Made by a program: the position numbers and the translations under genes. Below are positions 30,224 to 37,377 of a DNA stretch of 64,000 nucleotides, in pieces. Numbering within the stretch: the stretch's first letter is position 1; the number at the start of each line of letters is the position of its first letter. Location of the stretch: IMG/VR virus record IMGVR_UViG_3300045391_003842, positions 32,001-96,000 of that record; one strand, written 5' to 3'. The stretch comes from a virus. Under the pieces are notes generated by a model. It was given only the letters and a program-made list of their open reading frames with translations. It made no database searches and was not told the origin of the DNA.

Positions 30224-33200
30224 ATGGAGACACACCTGATGAGATCAGTGGTGACGGTCTATCCGATCGGCTCCCAAGTCTCTGGCGTGCCTTTTGTCGT
30301 TTCGGGAACGATCAACTACTATCCGACGATCGATGTCTCAGACGATGGCGTGAATTTCGATGATGCCAATGTGGGAGGATCGGCGCTGTCCACCTCCACG
30401 TGGCATTTCACGCACCAAGGCATGCCGGTCGGCAACTACACCTTCCGCTTTGAGTCCGGCGACGGATCATCCGGCGTCGTGACGTCCAACCCGTTCGCTG
30501 TCGTCAATCCGCACACCATCACGCCAAACGCGCCAACCGGCGCCGTGGAAGGCGCGCCGTTCATCTTCACCGGCTCGCTGGGCAACTACGCGCAACCGCC
30601 CAACCTCACCGCGGCAATCGACAGCGGCACGCCGTTCGCGCTGTCTGGTGTCAGTGCCAGCGGGTGGAACACCACGCTGACTATCGAGACATCCGGCACC
30701 CACACGCTGACTGTCAGCGATGGCACCTTGTCTACGACCACCGCGGCCTTCAGCGTCGCCGCATCGGGCGTGGCGCCTCCGCCGCCGGTATCCGGCGTGG
30801 TGTGGGATGCAACGCACAAGTCCAGCACCATCGTCCTGTCCAACGGCAGCGGCACGGCGACGTCCAGCGGCACCGGAGCCCAGTCGGTTCTGGCCACCGT
30901 GCCGGTCCCGGCGTCCGGCTTCGCCGCCTGGGAGGTCATCGCGAGCGCGGTCACCACGGATTGGGCGGCTGGCGTGGCCGATCGCAGCTACGCGCTGGAT
31001 TTCGGGGGCGGCCTTGGCGGCGATCAGCACGGCGCCGGCTACTACATAAACAGCCCTCCGGAGGAAACCTGGTACAACGGCACGTTGGTCAACGGCTCCA
31101 GCGGGACCGATTCGACCGGCGCGGCCATCTCGTTCGTCGCGTCCGGCCTGCAACTCTGGGTATCGACGCCGGAAATGCGGGCGAACGGCTTTAACTTCAA
31201 CAATTCGACCACTGCGGACCCGGCAACTGGCGTCGGCGGCATCAACGTCTCCGGAATCGGCCTGCCGTTCTATCCGGCGTTCAACGTGCTGGAGACTGGC
31301 GCGTCGGCGACGATCAACGGCGGGGCAAGCGGGGCGTTCTCGGCCTTCCTGACCACCTACATGGCGGCGCACACCGCGATCAAGGCGCTGGACGGCACGA
31401 TTGTGTCCGGCGGCGGATCGTCTGGCGTGCCGGCGGTTCACACCATAACGCCGGTTTCGCCGGGCACCGTGACGGCCGGGCAGGCGTTCACCTTCCACGG
31501 CACGATCAGCGGCTATGGCGGCACGGCACCGACGCTGCTGTACGAGGTGGACAACGGTTCGCCGGCCCTGGTGTCAGGTGTCACGGCGTCCGGGTGGTCC
31601 ATGACGCTGAACCTGAGCGTCCTGGGATCTCACACCCTGCTGGTGACAGACGGTGCGGTGTCGGGTTCCACCACGGTGGTGGTCCAGGCAGCCTCCGGAA
31701 CCGGCGGCGGCGGAGCCAATGGCATCCCGCGCGTGACGGCGCCGTTGACGGGCACGGTCACCAAAGGCACGTGGCTGCAAAATCAGCGGCTGAACGTCGC
31801 GGCGATGCCTCATGGGTTCATCGCCTACGATCTGTTGCTGCCGGCGCAGTACGATCCGAGCCTCGTCTATCCGATCATGGTCTACGGCCATGAGAATGAC
31901 GAAGGCATGAACGGGGGCTCGTATCCGTCCTCCAATCTGGCGACGGAAAATGGGGCGGTCGGGCCGGGTCTGAGCGCGGACTCGTGTTTCAACACCGTTG
32001 CATTCAGAACGGCGTTCCCCTGCATCGTGGTCGTGCCGTACTGTGACCAATCTCTCGACACCTCCGGTGCCAATCCGAATGCTAACTTTGGCGGCTACGC
32101 GGATACACCGGATAGTGGCGGCAACGAACAGGGCGTGCTGGCGCTGGTGCGGTTCCTGCAATCGACGTACAGTGTGGATGCAACGCGTATCTACATCACA
32201 GGCGACTCGTTGGGCGCGATCGGGGCCTTGGCCCAGATGGTGGACAACAACGCCTATGGTACCGGTACTGTCAACCACGTGTTCGCCGCCGGCATGGGTT
32301 TTTCCGATCAGCTTTACCGGCCGACCATTTCCGGTGGATCGAACAGCCCCGTCATCCAGGCGATGAAGAACGTCCCGTACTTGGCGATCGGCACACCCGA
32401 CGACAACAACGAGGCGATCTACGATCAAGCGGCGTGGCAGGCGTACACGGGCGGCGCTTCCTACCCGACCGCGGCCAACTACACGTCAGGTGGCGTGGCG
32501 GCGCTGAACGCACCCGGCACCCAGTTCTACTATCTGCATGACGCAAACGATGTGCCGTGGAATGACGGCTATCGCCAGTTGGATGCGGACGGCGGCAAGG
32601 GTACCGCGCTTTATACGTGGCTGTTCGACCAGATCGTCAGCGGTGTGTCGGTCGGCACAGTGCCGGCACCGGCCGCCTCGGCTGGGTACCACACGATCAC
32701 CTACGGTCCGACCATCGTGCTGGGTAAAACGGCTGATCCGGTGACCAGTTTCCCTGAGTTCTCGGGTTCGGTGAACTGGGTGCCGTTCACCTTCTATGGC
32801 ACATCGTGGGCTTCGATCGGTGCGGTGCAGAACGCGGACGGCTCTGTCACGTTGGATGGAACCGGCCAGACGTTCGGCAACGGGCTCGCCACGGCCGCGG
32901 CAGGCGACGCCAACCTGACGTCGGATCGTCTGTCCTTCACCGGCACGGCCTTTGGCGGCGGCTTCTACGTTGAAGCTGTCATGAAGGGTGACGGGCCGAT
33001 GTCGTTCTGGGCGAACGATATCGAAACCATGAATGGCGTCTCGGTGAATGCCGGGCCGAATGCATGGGCCGGTCAGGTGTCAGGCTACGGCGATTGGATC
33101 GAAGCGGACATCGCGGAGTTCGACACGACCGGATCGTACGGCATCGCGCTCCACAACTGGTACGGAGCGGTCGGGTCCAACAACGATGTCAACACCGGCT

Positions 33201-35083
33201 TTGCCAAGGTGGCGCCCTCGCCGACGCCTGATTACACGCAGTACCACACCTACGGTGCTCTGTGGGTGCCGGCGACGGTATCGGGGCATGGTTCCTTCAA
33301 GTTCTATTTTGATGGAACGGAAGTTGCGGAGGTAACCTGGGATCAGTTCAATGCTGCGCTGACTCCGCCGCCGACCGCTCAAGCCTCTGTCACGTCGGGA
33401 GTGCCGCAGACGGCTGGCGGCCTGACCGCGTTTGGCGTCATGGACAACCTGCATCTCGCCCTCATCATGGGCGCGGGCAGCGGGAGCACCGTGACGTTCA
33501 AGAGCGTAACGGTCTGGCAGCGGGACGCCTCGAAAAACCTCGCTCCGTCCGGCACGATCATCCCGCCGCCGTCTGGCGAATCGAGAGATGGCACGATCGT
33601 CAATGGTACGACCGGCCAGCTTATCGACAGCCAGAACAACGTCTGGGCGATCAACGCTGGTGGCGTGATCACGGTCAATGGCACGCCGGACAACACTACG
33701 GGCAACGTGCTGCGTCTCGTCTATTCCAACCACACGATCTGGCAGCAGAACGCGGATCTCATGTGGTGGAACAAGACAAGCGCGGGCGCGTCGTGGACGC
33801 CGGCCACCGGCACGTCAACATCGCCGTTGTCCAACGCGGCGCCGTCATCGAACAAGGCCACGATCACGGCGCCGACTGCCACCGTGCTGACGGATGTCTC
33901 GGGCAACGCCTACGGCATCAACAGCGGGCAGGTGATGGTCAACGGCACGGCAGACTCCAGCACGTCCAACGTGGTGGAACTGGCGTATGTCGCGGGCGTC
34001 ATGTGGCAGGAAACCGCGTCCGGCGTCTGGTATGGCAAGTCCAGCCCGACCGCGGCATGGTCCCCATCCGGCGGTACCACGACGTCGCCTTTGGCGTCGG
34101 GCAGCGGCGGTGGCGGAACGCCAACCGGCCAGTTCCATATCAGCGGCGGCAAGATCATCGATCCGAACGGAAAGGTGTTCATCGCGGCCGGTGTCAATAT
34201 CTATGACACGGATCTGGCGGGCGCGATCACGGGACCGGACTGCAATCCCCTGCTGTCCACGTTCCCAGGCTGCAACTTCGTGCGGGTGCCGGTCTACGCG
34301 TACCAAGATCCCTCTTTCTTCGCGCAGCAGATTGCCTGGGCGACGGCGAAAGGGATCGTGATCGAACTCGAAGACCACACCAACACCAGCGGTGGCAACG
34401 CTGGCGGCAATGACCAGGGCGGTGTCATCTTCTCTGGCTCCAGGCTAACCCAGGAACTGAACTGGTATGCGAGTTGCGCGGCCTATTATGCGAACAACCC
34501 GTATGTCTGGTTTGGTACCGACAACGAACCGGCGACGAAAACCAACGCGAGCGGATCTTCGGACCCGAACGCGTTGTCCTCGTGGCAGCAGCAGACCTAC
34601 AATGCTGTGCGCAACGCGGGCTCCGATGCGATCGTGATGATTGAGGCGGTGGGCTGGGATACGCCCCAGTCGTACGGCCAATACATCACACCTTCCTATT
34701 TCACCGGCATGACGAACGCGATTATCGACATGCATGTGTATGGAGAGGCCTATAGCGGCACGACGGCGAGCAACATCGCCAGCGTGATCAACGAGAACAT
34801 CGCGTACATCCAGGGGAACCAAACCTCTGCGGATGGCGTGATGCCAGTGCTGATCGGAGAGTTCGGCAACGCCACGGACGGGCAACACTTCGACTCGAAC
34901 GGCGCGGCGACGGTGACGGCTGTCACCCAGGTGGCCGGTGCCAACTCCGCGGGTTTCGCGGCGTGGAACTGGCAGCCCGGCAACGGCGACATTGACGCTC
35001 TGCGGAACGGCAATGGCAGCCTGACGGACTACGGTCAGCAGATTGCGACGGGCATCGCGGCAGCGGCAGCCAATCGCAGCTAA
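30224..35083 (+). CDS. Large multidomain polysaccharide-degrading protein: Ig-like, SPRY/ConA-like, alpha/beta hydrolase, GH16-like, repeats, GH5
   Basis: Nucleophile elbow RIYITGDSLG. GH16-type EADIAE. GH5 acid/base DNEP, HVY and nucleophile IGEFG. Confidence 0.85.
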   Translation: METHLMRSVVTVYPIGSQVSGVPFVVSGTINYYPTIDVSDDGVNFDDANVGGSALSTSTWHFTHQGMPVGNYTFRFESGDGSSGVVTSNPFAVVNPHTITPNAPTGAVEGAPFIFTGSLGNYAQPPNLTAAIDSGTPFALSGVSASGWNTTLTIETSGTHTLTVSDGTLSTTTAAFSVAASGVAPPPPVSGVVWDATHKSSTIVLSNGSGTATSSGTGAQSVLATVPVPASGFAAWEVIASAVTTDWAAGVADRSYALDFGGGLGGDQHGAGYYINSPPEETWYNGTLVNGSSGTDSTGAAISFVASGLQLWVSTPEMRANGFNFNNSTTADPATGVGGINVSGIGLPFYPAFNVLETGASATINGGASGAFSAFLTTYMAAHTAIKALDGTIVSGGGSSGVPAVHTITPVSPGTVTAGQAFTFHGTISGYGGTAPTLLYEVDNGSPALVSGVTASGWSMTLNLSVLGSHTLLVTDGAVSGSTTVVVQAASGTGGGGANGIPRVTAPLTGTVTKGTWLQNQRLNVAAMPHGFIAYDLLLPAQYDPSLVYPIMVYGHENDEGMNGGSYPSSNLATENGAVGPGLSADSCFNTVAFRTAFPCIVVVPYCDQSLDTSGANPNANFGGYADTPDSGGNEQGVLALVRFLQSTYSVDATRIYITGDSLGAIGALAQMVDNNAYGTGTVNHVFAAGMGFSDQLYRPTISGGSNSPVIQAMKNVPYLAIGTPDDNNEAIYDQAAWQAYTGGASYPTAANYTSGGVAALNAPGTQFYYLHDANDVPWNDGYRQLDADGGKGTALYTWLFDQIVSGVSVGTVPAPAASAGYHTITYGPTIVLGKTADPVTSFPEFSGSVNWVPFTFYGTSWASIGAVQNADGSVTLDGTGQTFGNGLATAAAGDANLTSDRLSFTGTAFGGGFYVEAVMKGDGPMSFWANDIETMNGVSVNAGPNAWAGQVSGYGDWIEADIAEFDTTGSYGIALHNWYGAVGSNNDVNTGFAKVAPSPTPDYTQYHTYGALWVPATVSGHGSFKFYFDGTEVAEVTWDQFNAALTPPPTAQASVTSGVPQTAGGLTAFGVMDNLHLALIMGAGSGSTVTFKSVTVWQRDASKNLAPSGTIIPPPSGESRDGTIVNGTTGQLIDSQNNVWAINAGGVITVNGTPDNTTGNVLRLVYSNHTIWQQNADLMWWNKTSAGASWTPATGTSTSPLSNAAPSSNKATITAPTATVLTDVSGNAYGINSGQVMVNGTADSSTSNVVELAYVAGVMWQETASGVWYGKSSPTAAWSPSGGTTTSPLASGSGGGGTPTGQFHISGGKIIDPNGKVFIAAGVNIYDTDLAGAITGPDCNPLLSTFPGCNFVRVPVYAYQDPSFFAQQIAWATAKGIVIELEDHTNTSGGNAGGNDQGGVIFSGSRLTQELNWYASCAAYYANNPYVWFGTDNEPATKTNASGSSDPNALSSWQQQTYNAVRNAGSDAIVMIEAVGWDTPQSYGQYITPSYFTGMTNAIIDMHVYGEAYSGTTASNIASVINENIAYIQGNQTSADGVMPVLIGEFGNATDGQHFDSNGAATVTAVTQVAGANSAGFAAWNWQPGNGDIDALRNGNGSLTDYGQQIATGIAAAAANRS

Positions 35084-35112
35084 GGCAGAGCGGGAAACCG
35101 CTGGCTAAGGCA

Positions 35113-35149
35113 GGGCGCCAGGGTCTTCGGACTCTGGCGCTTTTTCTTT
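35113..35149 (+). terminator. Intrinsic terminator
   Basis: GGCGCCAGGGTC-TTCG-GACTCTGGCGCT followed by a T-run. Confidence 0.85.
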
Positions 35150-35174: not shown

Positions 35175-35203
35175 TTGCACGACCGCGCAAAATGCGCGAT
35201 ATC
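35175..35203 (+). promoter_or_regulatory. Candidate promoter for the RNA array and rsr
   Basis: TTGCAC-17-GATATC. The predicted start coincides with the first RNA unit at about 35210. Confidence 0.45.
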
Positions 35204-35209
35204 TCCGCC

Positions 35210-35276
35210 TGTCGATAGCGTGAGCCCACGGATACTTCTGGCATGTTGTAAGCCCGTGAGCGATTAAACTTCGACA
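35210..35276 (+). ncRNA. Y-RNA-like unit 1 (short; Ala-GGC-like loop)
   Basis: TGTCGA/TCGACA outer stem, TAGCGT, CACGG/CCGTG inner stem, ATACTTC, TTAAACT. Confidence 0.7.
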
Positions 35277-35284
35277 ACAGTTTT

Positions 35285-35376
35285 CGCTGGATAGCGTAGA
35301 ACTCGGTTGCATCGGTCTGATAAACCGTTACGGGCTTGCGCCCGTGGCACTGCCGGGATCGCCTAACCTTCCGGCG
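35285..35376 (+). ncRNA. Y-RNA-like unit 2 (Ile-GAU anticodon stem-loop)
   Basis: CGCTGGA/TCCGGCG stem, TAGCGT, CTCGG/CCGGG, cggt-CTGATAA-accg hairpin, CCTAACCT. Confidence 0.75.
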
Positions 35377-35385
35377 TTTGAATAT

Positions 35386-35522
35386 GTGGGTAGCGTATGT
35401 AGCGGTTACTTCTCAAAAACTTTGGGTCGGTGGTTCGAATCCACTTCTGTCATCTTCGGGTGGCGGGTAGCTCAGGGGTAGAGCAAAAGTCAAACAAGGT
35501 CCGTTGCAGTCTGATCTCCCAC
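35386..35522 (+). ncRNA. YrlA-type Y RNA unit 3 (permuted tRNA body; Leu-CAA-like loop)
   Basis: Scaffold plus T arm GGTGG-TTCGAAT-CCACT, acceptor stem closed by cUUCGg, then D arm GCTC-AGGGGTA-GAGC. T-before-D order. Confidence 0.88.
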
Positions 35523-35557
35523 TTTTAGTTTGCGTATGGAGGTAGAACACGAAATAC

Positions 35558-35623
35558 ACTGGATAGCGTTAGATTGCGGTTACTTCTTTGGTGAACCACA
35601 CCGTAGTCGATTGATCTTCCGGT
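35558..35623 (+). ncRNA. Y-RNA-like unit 4 (short; Gln-UUG-like loop)
   Basis: ACTGGA/TCCGGT stem, TAGCGT, GATTGCGG/CCGTAGTC, TTACTTC, TTGATCT. Confidence 0.75.
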
Positions 35624-35630
35624 AGTAAAC

Positions 35631-35769
35631 GATGGATAGCGTAGAGAACGGTTACTTCGCATCTGGAGCGCGAGGTCGTTGGTTCGAGTCCAACTCCGTC
35701 CACCTTTCACGGGCGGGTAGCTCAGTCGGTAGAGCGCGTACTGTTACTGTTGTCGCCTGATCTTCCATC
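35631..35769 (+). ncRNA. YrlA-type Y RNA unit 5 (permuted tRNA body; Gln-CUG-like loop)
   Basis: GATGGA/TCCATC stem. AGGTC variable loop, T arm GTTGG-TTCGAGT-CCAAC, closed acceptor TCCGTCC/GGGCGGG, D arm GCTC-AGTCGGTA-GAGC. Confidence 0.88.
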
Positions 35770-35805
35770 ACTCGCTACCGGCTCACTTTCAACAGGAGCC
35801 AAGCC

Positions 35806-37182
35806 ATGCGCCTAAACCGAGCCGTCAAGCAGCCGCCGATCGTTACCCATGAGGGTGGTAAGGCCTCTCGTATCAATCTGGTGCAGCAACTGCGCCGGTC
35901 TGTCCTCTCCTGCATGCTGTGGGAGAAGGAATTTTACGAGGATGGCGACACGATCTCTGCGCGGATCCGCAGCCTCATTCCTATGATTTCGCCGGCTGTC
36001 GTGTCGGCCCTGGCGATCGAGGCGCGCACCAAGTTTCATCTGCGTCATATCCCGCTGTTTCTGACCGCGGCGCTGGCGCAGACGGCTGCCGGCACGTCGA
36101 TTGTGTCGGAGACGCTGAACGGTGTCATCCAGCGCGCCGACGAGTTGTCGGAATTTCTGACGATCTACGCGCAGATGAACGGCGTCGCGCCTGACAAGAT
36201 CAAGCCGAAGCTGTCCAATCAGGTGCGCAAGGGCCTCGCGGCGGCCTTCGGCCGATTCGATGAATACCAGTTGGCCAAGTACAACCGCGACGCTGTGATC
36301 AAGTTGCGTGATGTGCTGTTTTTGTGCCACGCCAAGCCGAAGGATATTGCTCAGGCAGCGCTGTGGGAGCGGCTGATCAACGGCAAGATCGCGGTGCCGG
36401 ACACCTGGGAAGTCGCTTTGTCCGGGGGCGCCGACAAGAAGACCACCTGGGAGCGCCTGCTTGGCGCCAACCAGCTTGGTTACCTCGCTCTGTTGCGGAA
36501 CCTCCGCAACATGCAGGAAGTCGGCGTGGACCCGAACCTGATTCGTGAGGCGATCTTGGCGCGTCGGGGCGGTGCTGATCGGGTGTTGCCGTTCCGGTTC
36601 ACCGCGGCGGCTCGAGTCGTGCCGGCGTATGAGCCCGAATTGGATAAGGCCATGATGGCGAACATCATGGCGCTGCCGAGTCTGCCGGGCCGGACGGCGG
36701 TGCTGGTGGACGTCAGCGCCAGCATGGACGAGCGTCTGTCGGCGAAGTCGGATCTGTCTCGGTTGGATGCGGCGGCGACGCTCGCTTCCATGATAAACGC
36801 ACAGGATCGTCGGGTGTTCTCGTTCTCGACACAGGTTGTGGAGGTGGCGCCGCGCCTGGGTATGGCCGGCGTGGATGCGATCCGGACCAGCCAAATTCAC
36901 CATGGCACGCATCTGTTTGATGCGGTGGATCTGATCAATCGGACGGTACCGCATGACCGGCTCATCATCATCACCGATGAGCAGGCGACCGGGGCGGTGG
37001 GTTTTGGCTACCGCCTGGGCGGGACGCTCCGGAGCATGCCGGCGCCGGCTTGTGATCATGGCTACGTGATCAACGTGGCGAGTGCGCTGAACGGCGTTGG
37101 ATATGGTCCCTGGACTCATATCGACGGCTTTTCAGAGCAGGTGTTGCGCTGGATCGCGGAATACGAGGCCGCGGAGGTCTGA
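35806..37182 (+). CDS. rsr: Ro60 / TROVE domain RNA-binding protein
   Basis: THEGGKA, LRRSVLSCMLWEKEFYEDG, RADEL, FDEYQLAKY, LRDVLFLCH, PDTWEVALS, ALLRNLRN, LPFRF. vWA MIDAS DVSASM and IITDEQ. Confidence 0.95.
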   Translation: MRLNRAVKQPPIVTHEGGKASRINLVQQLRRSVLSCMLWEKEFYEDGDTISARIRSLIPMISPAVVSALAIEARTKFHLRHIPLFLTAALAQTAAGTSIVSETLNGVIQRADELSEFLTIYAQMNGVAPDKIKPKLSNQVRKGLAAAFGRFDEYQLAKYNRDAVIKLRDVLFLCHAKPKDIAQAALWERLINGKIAVPDTWEVALSGGADKKTTWERLLGANQLGYLALLRNLRNMQEVGVDPNLIREAILARRGGADRVLPFRFTAAARVVPAYEPELDKAMMANIMALPSLPGRTAVLVDVSASMDERLSAKSDLSRLDAAATLASMINAQDRRVFSFSTQVVEVAPRLGMAGVDAIRTSQIHHGTHLFDAVDLINRTVPHDRLIIITDEQATGAVGFGYRLGGTLRSMPAPACDHGYVINVASALNGVGYGPWTHIDGFSEQVLRWIAEYEAAEV

Positions 37183-37191
37183 GATCCGGTC

Positions 37192-37377
37192 ATGTCACCA
37201 TCTGACCTGATCACCGCTGGCGAGAGGTTATTTGGCGTGCACTGGCGCCAACCTCTCGCCGACTGGTTGGGGGTGAACATATCGACGGTGCGGCGATGGG
37301 CATCGGCCGAGGTAGCGATACCCCGGTCTGTGGCCATCGCCATCACCCTACGGTTGAAACACGAAGGATCGCCTTGA
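37192..37377 (+). CDS. Small HTH DNA-binding protein
   Basis: WRQPLADWLGVNISTVRRWASAEVAIP. Confidence 0.75.
   Translation: MSPSDLITAGERLFGVHWRQPLADWLGVNISTVRRWASAEVAIPRSVAIAITLRLKHEGSP

What the first reader, a model, noticed from the sequence alone, without database searches (positions are those of the whole stretch)
35210..37182. Tandem array of five modular Y-RNA-like units co-transcribed with a phage Ro60
Seen: between a strong terminator (35113-35149) and the rsr start there are five units (35210-35276, 35285-35376, 35386-35522, 35558-35623, 35631-35769). Each has the same architecture: outer stem, RUAGCGU, inner stem ending CGG, (U/A)UACUUC (UUGCAUC in unit 2), variable cargo, return strand, YU(G/A)A(U/C/A)CU, outer stem. 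Stem sequences differ between units but keep their pairing (GUCGA/UCGAC, CGCUGGA/UCCGGCG, GUGGG/CCCAC, ACUGGA/UCCGGU, GAUGGA/UCCAUC), while the internal-loop bases are conserved. That is covariation within one locus. Known: bacterial Ro60 (Rsr) binds Y RNAs, YrlA RNAs carry a tRNA-like domain with the T arm before the D arm, and described loci such as Salmonella rsr-yrlBA-rtcBA have about two RNAs. Inference: this is a constant-scaffold, variable-cargo cassette that loads one Ro60 with five different RNAs. No RtcB is present in the window.
Basis: partly seen in the sequence, partly recalled or inferred. Interest (0 to 1): 0.92.

Follow-up and report, generated by a model that had tools for sequence, protein, structure and literature searches.

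The report
Five Y RNAs before phage Ro60
An uncultured phage carries five small Y-RNA genes in a row in front of its Ro60 RNA-binding-protein gene; this is a real but expected example of the known Ro60/Y-RNA partnership, and rows of 2 to 8 such RNAs are normal next to this kind of Ro60.

Summary
Five units lie at exactly the stated coordinates, on the Ro60 strand, and nowhere else in the 115.8-kb phage record. Each unit has an outer stem, a bulged U, two covarying pairs, a CGNA internal loop, an inner stem ending CGG, and a UUACUUC-type word.

This shared handle is the published Y-RNA module: the GNCGAAN0-1G and YUAY motifs of YrlA/YrlB, and the CGAA bulge bound by Thermus phage phiLo Ro60. 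Units 3 and 5 are YrlA-type tRNA mimics. Units 1, 2 and 4 are short YrlB-like hairpins.

A model built only from other loci finds units 4, 1 and 2 (E 3e-13 to 4e-7). All 33 related Ro60 loci that I fetched (phages, MAGs, bacteria) carry 2 to 8 units, median 3. Caulobacter phage CcrColossus, already cited as a Y-RNA carrier, has 8.

So this is a new member of a known kind, not a new system. Transcription, processing and Ro60 binding were not tested.

Extras found here:
- The handle's base-pair variant is uniform within an array.
- Unit 5 is orthologous to the CcrColossus "tRNA-Gln" unit.
- Many long units keep an anticodon-like arm.

This scan has noted similar arrays on other phage DNA.

The parts
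35112..35149 (+). Intrinsic-terminator-like hairpin plus T run that ends the upstream 1619-aa GH5-domain gene
   Evidence: Terminator scan; sequence; Pfam Cellulase hit on the upstream ORF
35175..35203 (+). Candidate promoter: TTGCAC, 15 nt, GCGATATC. It would start transcription near the first base of unit 1. This is inference only.
   Evidence: Read from the sequence. The resemblance to the alphaproteobacterial housekeeping promoter consensus is from memory. The sigma-70 scan did not call it.
35210..35276 (+). Unit 1: short YrlB-like Y RNA (handle plus a small hairpin, AUACUUC word)
   Evidence: Descriptor. R3 (a model built without any window sequence) gave 27.8 bits, E 2e-7. R1 gave 21.4 bits.
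35285..35376 (+). Unit 2: short Y RNA with two extra hairpins in the interior (UUGCAUC word)
   Evidence: R3 gave 33.6 bits, E 4e-8. R1 gave 30 bits. Fold z -2.4.
35386..35522 (+). Unit 3: YrlA-type Y RNA. T arm, 9-bp acceptor-like hairpin sealed by UUCG (G3:U70), D arm, and a 5-bp anticodon-stem equivalent (35419-35423 with 35486-35490).
   Evidence: Rfam YrlA 30.2 bits, E 2e-4. R2 (not trained on this unit) 37.9 bits..
35558..35623 (+). Unit 4: short YrlB-like Y RNA, the closest of the five to the family consensus
   Evidence: R3 46.1 bits, E 5.5e-12 over the whole window. Fold z -2.5.
35631..35769 (+). Unit 5: YrlA-type Y RNA. Anticodon-like arm (loop AUCUGGA), AGGUC, T arm, 7-bp acceptor-like stem with G3:U70 followed by ACC, then D arm. 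Ortholog of the CcrColossus unit annotated tRNA-Gln.
   Evidence: Rfam YrlA 31.9 bits, E 7e-5, and tRNA 27 bits (below the 29 cut-off). R2 51.8 bits. 75% identity to L001:2499-2669..
35806..37182 (+). Ro60/Rsr homolog (458 aa): TROVE plus vWA with a DxSxS metal site; AGGAG ribosome-binding site 7 nt upstream
   Evidence: Pfam. PHROG 850 'RNA-binding protein', E 5e-46. Thermus phage phiLo Ro60 9KOP/9L5Y, E 2e-17.
37192..37377 (+). 61-aa HTH-like ORF 10 nt after Ro60, probably in the same operon. Homologs follow Ro60 in five related loci.
   Evidence: PHROG 3626. tblastn hits just downstream of Ro60 in L010, L011, L015, L017 and L027.

Best explanation
The stretch 35210-35769 encodes five Y RNAs of the bacterial/phage YrlA-YrlB kind. 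Two are long and tRNA-like (units 3 and 5). Three are short hairpins (units 1, 2 and 4).

Shown here:
- All five share one handle: an outer stem, a bulged U, two pairs, a 4x7 internal loop holding CG(U)A, and an inner stem ending CGG followed by a UUAC-type word.
- The handle is conserved with heavy covariation in 97 units next to 32 Ro60 genes.
- It corresponds to the published Ro60-recognition motifs.

Inferred:
- The array and rsr are made as one transcript from a promoter just upstream of unit 1.
- Host RNases cut the transcript in the A/U-rich spacers. RNase P may also cut unit 5.
- Each RNA docks by its handle on the outer face of the phage Ro60 ring.
- The variable interior recruits or occupies host partners: PNPase through the pyrimidine-rich single strands, and tRNA-binding enzymes through the tRNA-like elbow. 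In this way the phage re-tunes host RNA decay or tRNA-linked processes during infection, as proposed for Thermus phage phiLo.
For: Identity and structure:
- RNAalifold on a MAFFT alignment of 15 long units shows compensatory changes in 30 of 35 pairs.
- On 23 short units from other loci, 94.6% of cells pair against 63% when shuffled, 0 of 500 shuffles reach this, and slid controls give 42-54%.
- On 97 units, 95.5% pair against 64.7%, and all 16 pairs show double changes.

Leave-out test:
- Model R3, built without any window sequence, finds units 4, 2 and 1.
- R2, built without units 3 and 5, finds both.
- There are no other hits in the window or in the rest of the phage record.

Link to Ro60:
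- Every hit in 33 loci is on the Ro60 strand and adjacent to the gene.

Match to known Y RNAs:
- Rfam YrlA local hits cover T, AS and D.
- The family consensus GGCGAAG equals GNCGAAN0-1G, and UUAC equals YUAY (PMC4201824).
- The nearest solved protein is phiLo Ro60. It binds two upstream Y-like RNAs at a stem-bulge holding CGAA, and forms complexes with host PNPase.
- By my residue mapping, three of the five RNA-contact basic residues of phiLo Ro60 are kept.

One transcript:
- There is no terminator between unit 1 and rsr.
- M. smegmatis YrlA and YrlB are processed from one precursor upstream of rsr.
Against:
- The Rfam YrlA scores (31.9 and 30.2 bits) are far below the 69-bit gathering score.
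- No window unit matches the literal GNCGAA word. All five read AGCGU, and the first change is compensated in the pair.
- The promoter is read by eye only.
- The record encodes no PNPase, RtcB, RNA ligase or CCA-adding enzyme. Any partner must therefore be a host protein, and the host is unknown.
- The PNPase role is borrowed from Deinococcus, Salmonella and phiLo.
Confidence: 0.72

Rival explanations
1. The five structures are not separate RNAs. They form a cis-acting structured leader of the rsr mRNA, for example one through which Ro60 autoregulates its own translation or stability.
For: The units lie directly upstream of rsr on the same strand, with no terminator between unit 5 and the start codon 36 nt later.
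Against: In L013, L018 and L019 the units lie immediately downstream of the Ro60 gene, so a 5'-leader position is not required. Units are separated by A/U-rich spacers, and each closes on its own outer stem. In M. smegmatis and phiLo the upstream RNAs are discrete Ro60 ligands.
Confidence: 0.1
2. The array is a tRNA-decoy set. The tRNA-derived interiors are held or presented by Ro60 and soak up host tRNA-targeting defence nucleases or tRNA enzymes. Unit 5 carries an Ala-type acceptor (G3:U70, A73, CC) and an anticodon-like arm.
For: 14 of 37 long units in the family have a perfect 5-bp/7-nt arm just before a 4-5-nt variable loop, with U33 in 14 of 14 and a purine at 37 in 14 of 14 (shuffles: mean 0.78, maximum 4), and their loop triplets differ. 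Unit 5 and its CcrColossus ortholog keep G3:U70 and A73, followed by ACC in unit 5 and ACCA in CcrColossus. M. smegmatis YrlA is cut by RNase P and receives CCA.
Against: In this window only unit 5 has such an arm, and it has one mismatch. Units 1, 2, 3 and 4 do not. Nothing here links the locus to a defence system. The acceptor ends are sealed by loops. The idea is untested anywhere.
Confidence: 0.1
3. The units are decayed tRNA genes (a pseudo-tRNA cluster) with no function of their own.
For: The Rfam tRNA model scores 27 bits (cut-off 29) at 35630-35702. The orthologous CcrColossus unit is annotated tRNA-Gln.
Against: ARAGORN finds no tRNA in the window or in the whole record. The arm order is permuted. 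Three units have no tRNA arms at all. The handle shows strong purifying selection with compensatory changes, and it is strictly linked to Ro60 in 33 loci.
Confidence: 0.03

Closest known systems
Bacterial Rsr (Ro60) with YrlA and YrlB Y RNAs (Salmonella Typhimurium, Mycobacterium smegmatis; Chen et al. 2014, PMC4201824; Rfam RF02553)
   Same: - The RNAs are encoded next to Ro60 on the same strand.
- A 5' motif of the GNCGAAN0-1G type sits in a stem-bulge.
- The YUAY word is present.
- The long form has T arm, closed acceptor-like stem and D arm in that order.
- A short hairpin form occurs beside it.
- In M. smegmatis both lie upstream of rsr and come from one precursor.
   Different: - There are five units instead of two.
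- The motif reads AGCGU(N)AG in all five.
- Rfam scores are less than half the gathering score.
- Many long units of this clade, including unit 5, keep an anticodon-like 5-bp/7-nt arm, whereas Salmonella YrlA lacks an anticodon loop (bioRxiv 10.1101/312249).
- There is no rtcBA neighbour.
Thermus phage phiLo Ro60 with Yrl1 and Yrl2 (NAR 2025, PMC12135203; PDB 9KOP, 9L5Y)
   Same: - It is the nearest solved protein (E 2e-17).
- It is phage-encoded.
- Its Y-like RNAs lie upstream of the gene.
- The handle is a stem-bulge-stem with a CGAA-type word.
- The phage has no PNPase of its own.
   Different: - phiLo has two RNAs and no reported tRNA-like module.
- Binding and the PNPase complex are shown there and only inferred here.
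Caulobacter phages CcrColossus and CcrPW: TROVE gene with upstream Y-RNA-like units
   Same: - The handle family is the same (R1 and R2 hits of 30-122 bits).
- Unit 5 is 75% identical to CcrColossus unit c.
- Rfam YrlA scores are similarly below threshold (42, 30.5 and 29.9 bits).
   Different: - These phages have eight units, not five.
- The handle pair after the bulged U is G-C there and A-U here.
- They are jumbo phages of a known host.
- One unit is mis-annotated as tRNA-Gln.
Metazoan Y RNAs (hY1, hY3, hY4, hY5) with Ro60
   Same: Several paralogous RNAs share a bulged-helix Ro60 site formed by the 5' and 3' ends, and they differ in their internal loops, which bind other proteins.
   Different: They are separate Pol III genes, they have no tRNA-like domain, and the handle sequence differs (GGUCCGA).

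Membership tests
YrlA-type Y RNA (Chen 2014; Rfam RF02553) | Encoded within about 4 kb of a Ro60 ortholog, on the same strand | tested here: met
   Units lie 36-596 nt upstream of the TROVE ORF on the + strand.
YrlA-type Y RNA (Chen 2014; Rfam RF02553) | GNCGAAN0-1G motif near the 5' end | tested here: inconclusive
   The window units read AGCGU(N)AG. The literal motif fails at two positions. The same alignment columns read GGCGAAG in the family consensus, and the G-to-A change is compensated in its pair.
YrlA-type Y RNA (Chen 2014; Rfam RF02553) | T stem-loop, closed acceptor-like stem-loop and D stem-loop, in that order, with tRNA-like T and D loops | tested here: met
   Met for units 3 and 5 (cmscan alignment to model positions 24-84; covariation of the three helices). 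Not present in units 1, 2 and 4.
YrlA-type Y RNA (Chen 2014; Rfam RF02553) | Conserved YUAY word after the handle stem | tested here: met
   UUAC in units 3, 4 and 5. AUAC in unit 1 and UUGC in unit 2 are variants.
YrlA-type Y RNA (Chen 2014; Rfam RF02553) | Score at or above Rfam's gathering threshold (69 bits) | tested here: not met
   31.9 and 30.2 bits. The accepted CcrColossus units also score only 30-42 bits, so the model under-covers this clade.
YrlA-type Y RNA (Chen 2014; Rfam RF02553) | Bound and stabilised by Rsr/Ro60 | not testable with these tools
   Needs RIP, EMSA or a deletion strain.
YrlB-like short Y RNA | Ro60-type handle closing a hairpin with a pyrimidine-rich loop and no tRNA arms, encoded beside a YrlA | tested here: met
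   Units 1, 2 and 4. R3, built from 23 short units of other loci, scores them at 27.8, 26.7-33.6 and 46.1 bits. No curated family exists to test against.
Ro60/Rsr protein | TROVE domain followed by a vWA domain with a MIDAS DxSxS site | tested here: met
   TROVE 69 bits (cut-off 23). vWA families score 24.5 and 22.9 bits, just under their cut-offs. DVSAS aligns with the DVSGS of phiLo Ro60.
Ro60/Rsr protein | Closed HEAT-repeat ring with a basic outer Y-RNA surface | not tested
   I predicted no structure. Sequence alignment to 9L5Y covers residues 13-396. By my mapping, 3 of its 5 reported RNA-contact basic residues stay basic.
tRNA | Canonical cloverleaf recognised by tRNA finders | tested here: not met
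   ARAGORN finds 0 genes in the window and in the whole record. Rfam tRNA scores 27 bits, below the 29 cut-off.

The most novel reading that the evidence does not exclude
The array is an adaptor or decoy set tuned to the phage's own Ro60. The handle carries an array-wide base-pair signature: A-U in all 5 units here and in all 6 units of L025, and G-C or other pairs elsewhere. This signature changed in concert even in units that are old orthologs of units in other phages, which would make Ro60 and its RNAs a private, orthogonal pair. The tRNA-derived interiors then act as decoys or sponges for host tRNA-targeting defences or tRNA enzymes, rather than only tethering PNPase. Unit 5 has an Ala-type acceptor (G3:U70, A73, CC) and an anticodon-like arm.
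Probability: 0.1. Interest if true: 0.75.

Novelty: new member of a known kind. Interest (0 to 1): 0.35.

Why it matters
This locus adds one more phage to the Ro60/Y-RNA systems known since 2014, so by itself it changes little.

The comparative by-products are more useful:
- The Rfam YrlA model misses this whole clade at its threshold.
- Short YrlB-like units, which earlier searches could not find, are readily found with a handle-only model.
- Arrays of 2-8 units, not one or two RNAs, are the rule next to this Ro60 clade in phages and in several bacterial phyla.
- Many long units retain an almost complete first tRNA (anticodon-like arm, variable loop, T arm, 3' acceptor strand, sometimes CCA). 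This is the intermediate predicted by the published idea that YrlA arose from a tRNA dimer.

CcrColossus on Caulobacter offers a tractable system to ask what phage Ro60 particles do.

Tried and rejected
- Rfam at gathering thresholds gave no hit in the window. Only sub-threshold YrlA and tRNA hits appeared in a small search.
- ARAGORN found no tRNA or tmRNA.
- cmscan aligned the YrlA 5' motif of unit 3 to the second UAGCG word (35402-). I rejected this register. In the family alignment the GGCGAAG columns correspond to the first word, and YUAY corresponds to UUAC.
- I first read UAG/CUG as a 3-bp helix with an AUCU bulge, from single-sequence folds. Covariation favours a bulged U plus AG/CU.
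- The supplementary tables of Chen 2014 and the 2020 Annual Review are not held. I therefore could not see how many CcrColossus units were already listed.
- I searched the phage record for RtcB, RNA ligase, CCA-adding enzyme and RNase PH/PNPase and found none. The record is about 76% complete, so absence is not proven.
- The Ro60 tree is poorly resolved (9 of 28 inner branches left open), so it cannot show how often the handle variant switched.
- I attempted no complex or structure prediction. The tools cannot model the RNA, and the protein family is not in doubt.
Full report
**What is there**

The window is part of a 115,788-bp uncultured phage record. It is about 76% complete, 60% G+C, and has no tRNA genes. 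Its major capsid protein is only about 27% identical to any cultured phage.

A 1619-aa gene with a GH5 domain ends at 35083 and is followed by a terminator-like hairpin at 35112-35143 plus a T run. Then comes about 600 nt without a credible ORF. The next ORF, 35806-37182, is a Ro60/Rsr homolog:
- TROVE at 69 bits, followed by a vWA domain with a DxSxS site.
- PHROG 850 at E 5e-46.
- Nearest solved structure: Thermus phage phiLo Ro60, 9KOP/9L5Y, E 2e-17.

**The observation**

The descriptor asks for a 5' U-R-GCG-Y word, a 3' Y-N-R-W-H-C-Y word and at least 5 flanking pairs.

TAGCGT occurs five times in about 430 nt, against 14 times in the whole window on both strands. The joint 5' pattern reached five matches in none of 100 shuffles. 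So the array is real and not a chance pattern. A handle model finds no further unit in the window or in the other 52 kb of the phage record.

**Anatomy, refined by comparison**

I fetched 33 related Ro60 loci:
- two cultured Caulobacter phages;
- 19 IMG/VR contigs;
- 12 bacterial or MAG contigs from Alphaproteobacteria, Acidobacteriota, Latescibacterota, Desulfobacterales, Chloroflexota and a CPR lineage.

I built three covariance models:
- R1, from 15 long units.
- R2, from 22 short units.
- R3, from 23 short units with no window sequence.

The shared handle consists of:
- an outer stem of 5 to 16 pairs;
- one bulged U;
- two further pairs;
- an internal loop of 4 nt (CGAA, CGUA or CGCA) against 7 nt (GCUUGUU-like);
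- an 8-bp inner stem that ends CGG/CCG;
- the word UUACUUC.

Covariation is strong.
- On a plain MAFFT alignment of long units, 30 of 35 predicted pairs have compensatory changes.
- On the 23 non-window short units, 94.6% of cells pair against 63% in shuffles, 0 of 500 shuffles reach this, and slid registers give 42-54%.
- On 97 units aligned to R2, 95.5% pair against 64.7%, and all 16 pairs show double changes. That alignment is fitted to the model, so it leans towards the structure. The two MAFFT-based results do not have this bias.

The AG of UAG pairs with the CU of the 3' word.

**Independent recognition of the five units**

R3 has never seen the window. It finds:
- unit 4 at 46.1 bits (E 5.5e-12 over 64 kb);
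- unit 2 at 33.6 bits;
- unit 1 at 27.8 bits with filters off.

R2 was not trained on units 3 and 5. It scores them at 37.9 and 51.8 bits. Rfam's YrlA model gives local hits on units 5 and 3 (31.9 and 30.2 bits; E 7e-5 and 2e-4 in an 801-nt search) that cover the T arm, the closed acceptor-like stem and the D arm.

**What it is**

The handle's 5' word in the family consensus is GGCGAAG. This is the GNCGAAN0-1G motif that Chen et al. found in YrlA and YrlB and linked to Rsr binding. UUAC is their conserved YUAY. In Thermus phage phiLo, two Y-like RNAs upstream of the Ro60 gene bind the protein at a stem-bulge-stem holding CGAA, as shown by EMSA and cryo-EM.

Units 3 and 5 are YrlA-type. Units 1, 2 and 4 are YrlB-like short hairpins with pyrimidine-rich loops.

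All window units carry a variant, AGCGU(N)AG. The G-to-A change is matched by C-to-U in its partner.

**How unusual is five?**

It is not very unusual. Every hit in all 33 loci lies on the Ro60 strand next to the gene.

| Units per locus | Number of loci |
|---|---|
| 2 | 13 |
| 3 | 11 |
| 4 | 4 |
| 5 | 2 |
| 6 | 1 |
| 8 | 2 |

- The two loci with eight units are CcrColossus and CcrPW.
- A few counts are limited by contig ends or include one weak hit.
- In three loci the units lie just downstream of Ro60.
- CcrColossus is already cited as a carrier of Y-RNA-like RNAs. Its units score as poorly against Rfam YrlA as the window's do (30-42 bits).

**How it probably works**

Shown: family membership by sequence and structure, and linkage to Ro60.

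Inferred:
- A promoter-like TTGCAC-15 nt-GCGATATC at 35175-35203 would start transcription at unit 1.
- No terminator separates the units from rsr, so they are probably made as one precursor. This is the case for M. smegmatis YrlA and YrlB.
- The precursor would be cut in the A/U-rich spacers.
- Each RNA would dock on Ro60 by its handle and present its interior to host partners.
- The phage record has no PNPase, RtcB, RNA ligase or CCA-adding enzyme, so partners would be host proteins, as argued for phiLo and host PNPase.

I put about 0.9 on 'Y RNAs of the phage Ro60' and about 0.4 on the PNPase-type effector role.

**Extras**

1. The two pairs after the bulged U are uniform within an array. 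They are UAG/CU in 5 of 5 units here and in 6 of 6 in L025. They are GC/GC in L010, L011 and L028, and UGG/CC in most other arrays. Yet unit 5 is closer to CcrColossus unit c (75% identity) than to its own neighbour, unit 3 (66%). So unit types are old, and the handle variant seems to have changed array-wide, as expected if it tracks the cognate Ro60. The Ro60 tree is too poorly resolved to count the switches.
2. In 14 of 37 long units a perfect 5-bp stem with a 7-nt loop lies directly before a 4-5-nt AGGUC-type variable loop and the T arm. U33 is present in 14 of 14 and a purine at position 37 in 14 of 14 (shuffles: mean 0.78, maximum 4). Unit 5 has this arm with one mismatch (loop AUCUGGA). 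Its acceptor-like stem has G3:U70 followed by ACC. The CcrColossus ortholog has G3:U70 followed by ACCA. This explains the tRNA-Gln annotation there and the 27-bit tRNA hit here. These units look like a nearly intact first tRNA fused to the 5' part of a second one. That fits the published tRNA-dimer origin model and differs from Salmonella YrlA, which lacks an anticodon loop.

**Verdict**

This is a new member of the known phage and bacterial Ro60/Y-RNA systems, with a larger than median array. Earlier notes of this scan describe similar handle-sharing arrays beside Ro60-like genes in other phages. I did not test those notes.

Noticed in passing
window 35216-35218 with 35269-35270, and the same columns in units 2-5; L025, L010, L011, L015, L028: The two handle pairs after the bulged U are the same in every unit of an array but differ between arrays (A-U/G-C here and in L025; G-C/C-G or G-C/U-A elsewhere; G-C/G-C in most). 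Arrays with the A-U variant are scattered on a poorly resolved Ro60 tree. This suggests the handle co-evolves with its own Ro60.
   Followed up: partly
window 35655-35676 (unit 5); L001:2499-2669 and 13 other long units: An anticodon-arm-like 5-bp/7-nt stem-loop with invariant U33 and a purine at 37 lies just before the variable loop and T arm in many long units, with different loop triplets. Chen 2014 calls this region the V stem-loop. Salmonella YrlA lacks an anticodon loop.
   Followed up: partly
window 35446-35467 (unit 3) and 35695-35717 (unit 5); L001:2499-2669: Both acceptor-like stems have a G3:U70 wobble pair, the alanine identity element. Unit 5 is followed by A73-CC, and its CcrColossus ortholog by ACCA. 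Of 37 long units only these three and L030:153-290 have G3:U70. Processing by RNase P and charging were not examined.
   Followed up: partly
window 35630-35702; L001:2506-2573: The 5' strand of the outer stem can alternatively pair with the acceptor 3' strand to give a near-canonical cloverleaf (Rfam tRNA 27 bits, cut-off 29). The same region of CcrColossus is annotated tRNA-Gln in GenBank, which is probably a mis-annotation of a Y RNA.
   Followed up: partly
window 37192-37377: A 61-aa HTH-like ORF (PHROG 3626) starts 10 nt after Ro60. Homologs sit just downstream of Ro60 in L010, L011, L015, L017 and L027, so it may be a conserved partner or regulator.
   Followed up: partly
window 30224-35083: A 1619-aa ORF with a C-terminal GH5 cellulase domain (Pfam E 1e-20) lies directly upstream of the array. 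It may be a virion-associated polysaccharide depolymerase.
   Followed up: no
L013:4341-4546, L018:4351-4625, L019:4331-4630: In three viral contigs the Y-RNA units lie immediately downstream of the Ro60 gene rather than upstream, so the position relative to the gene is flexible.
   Followed up: no
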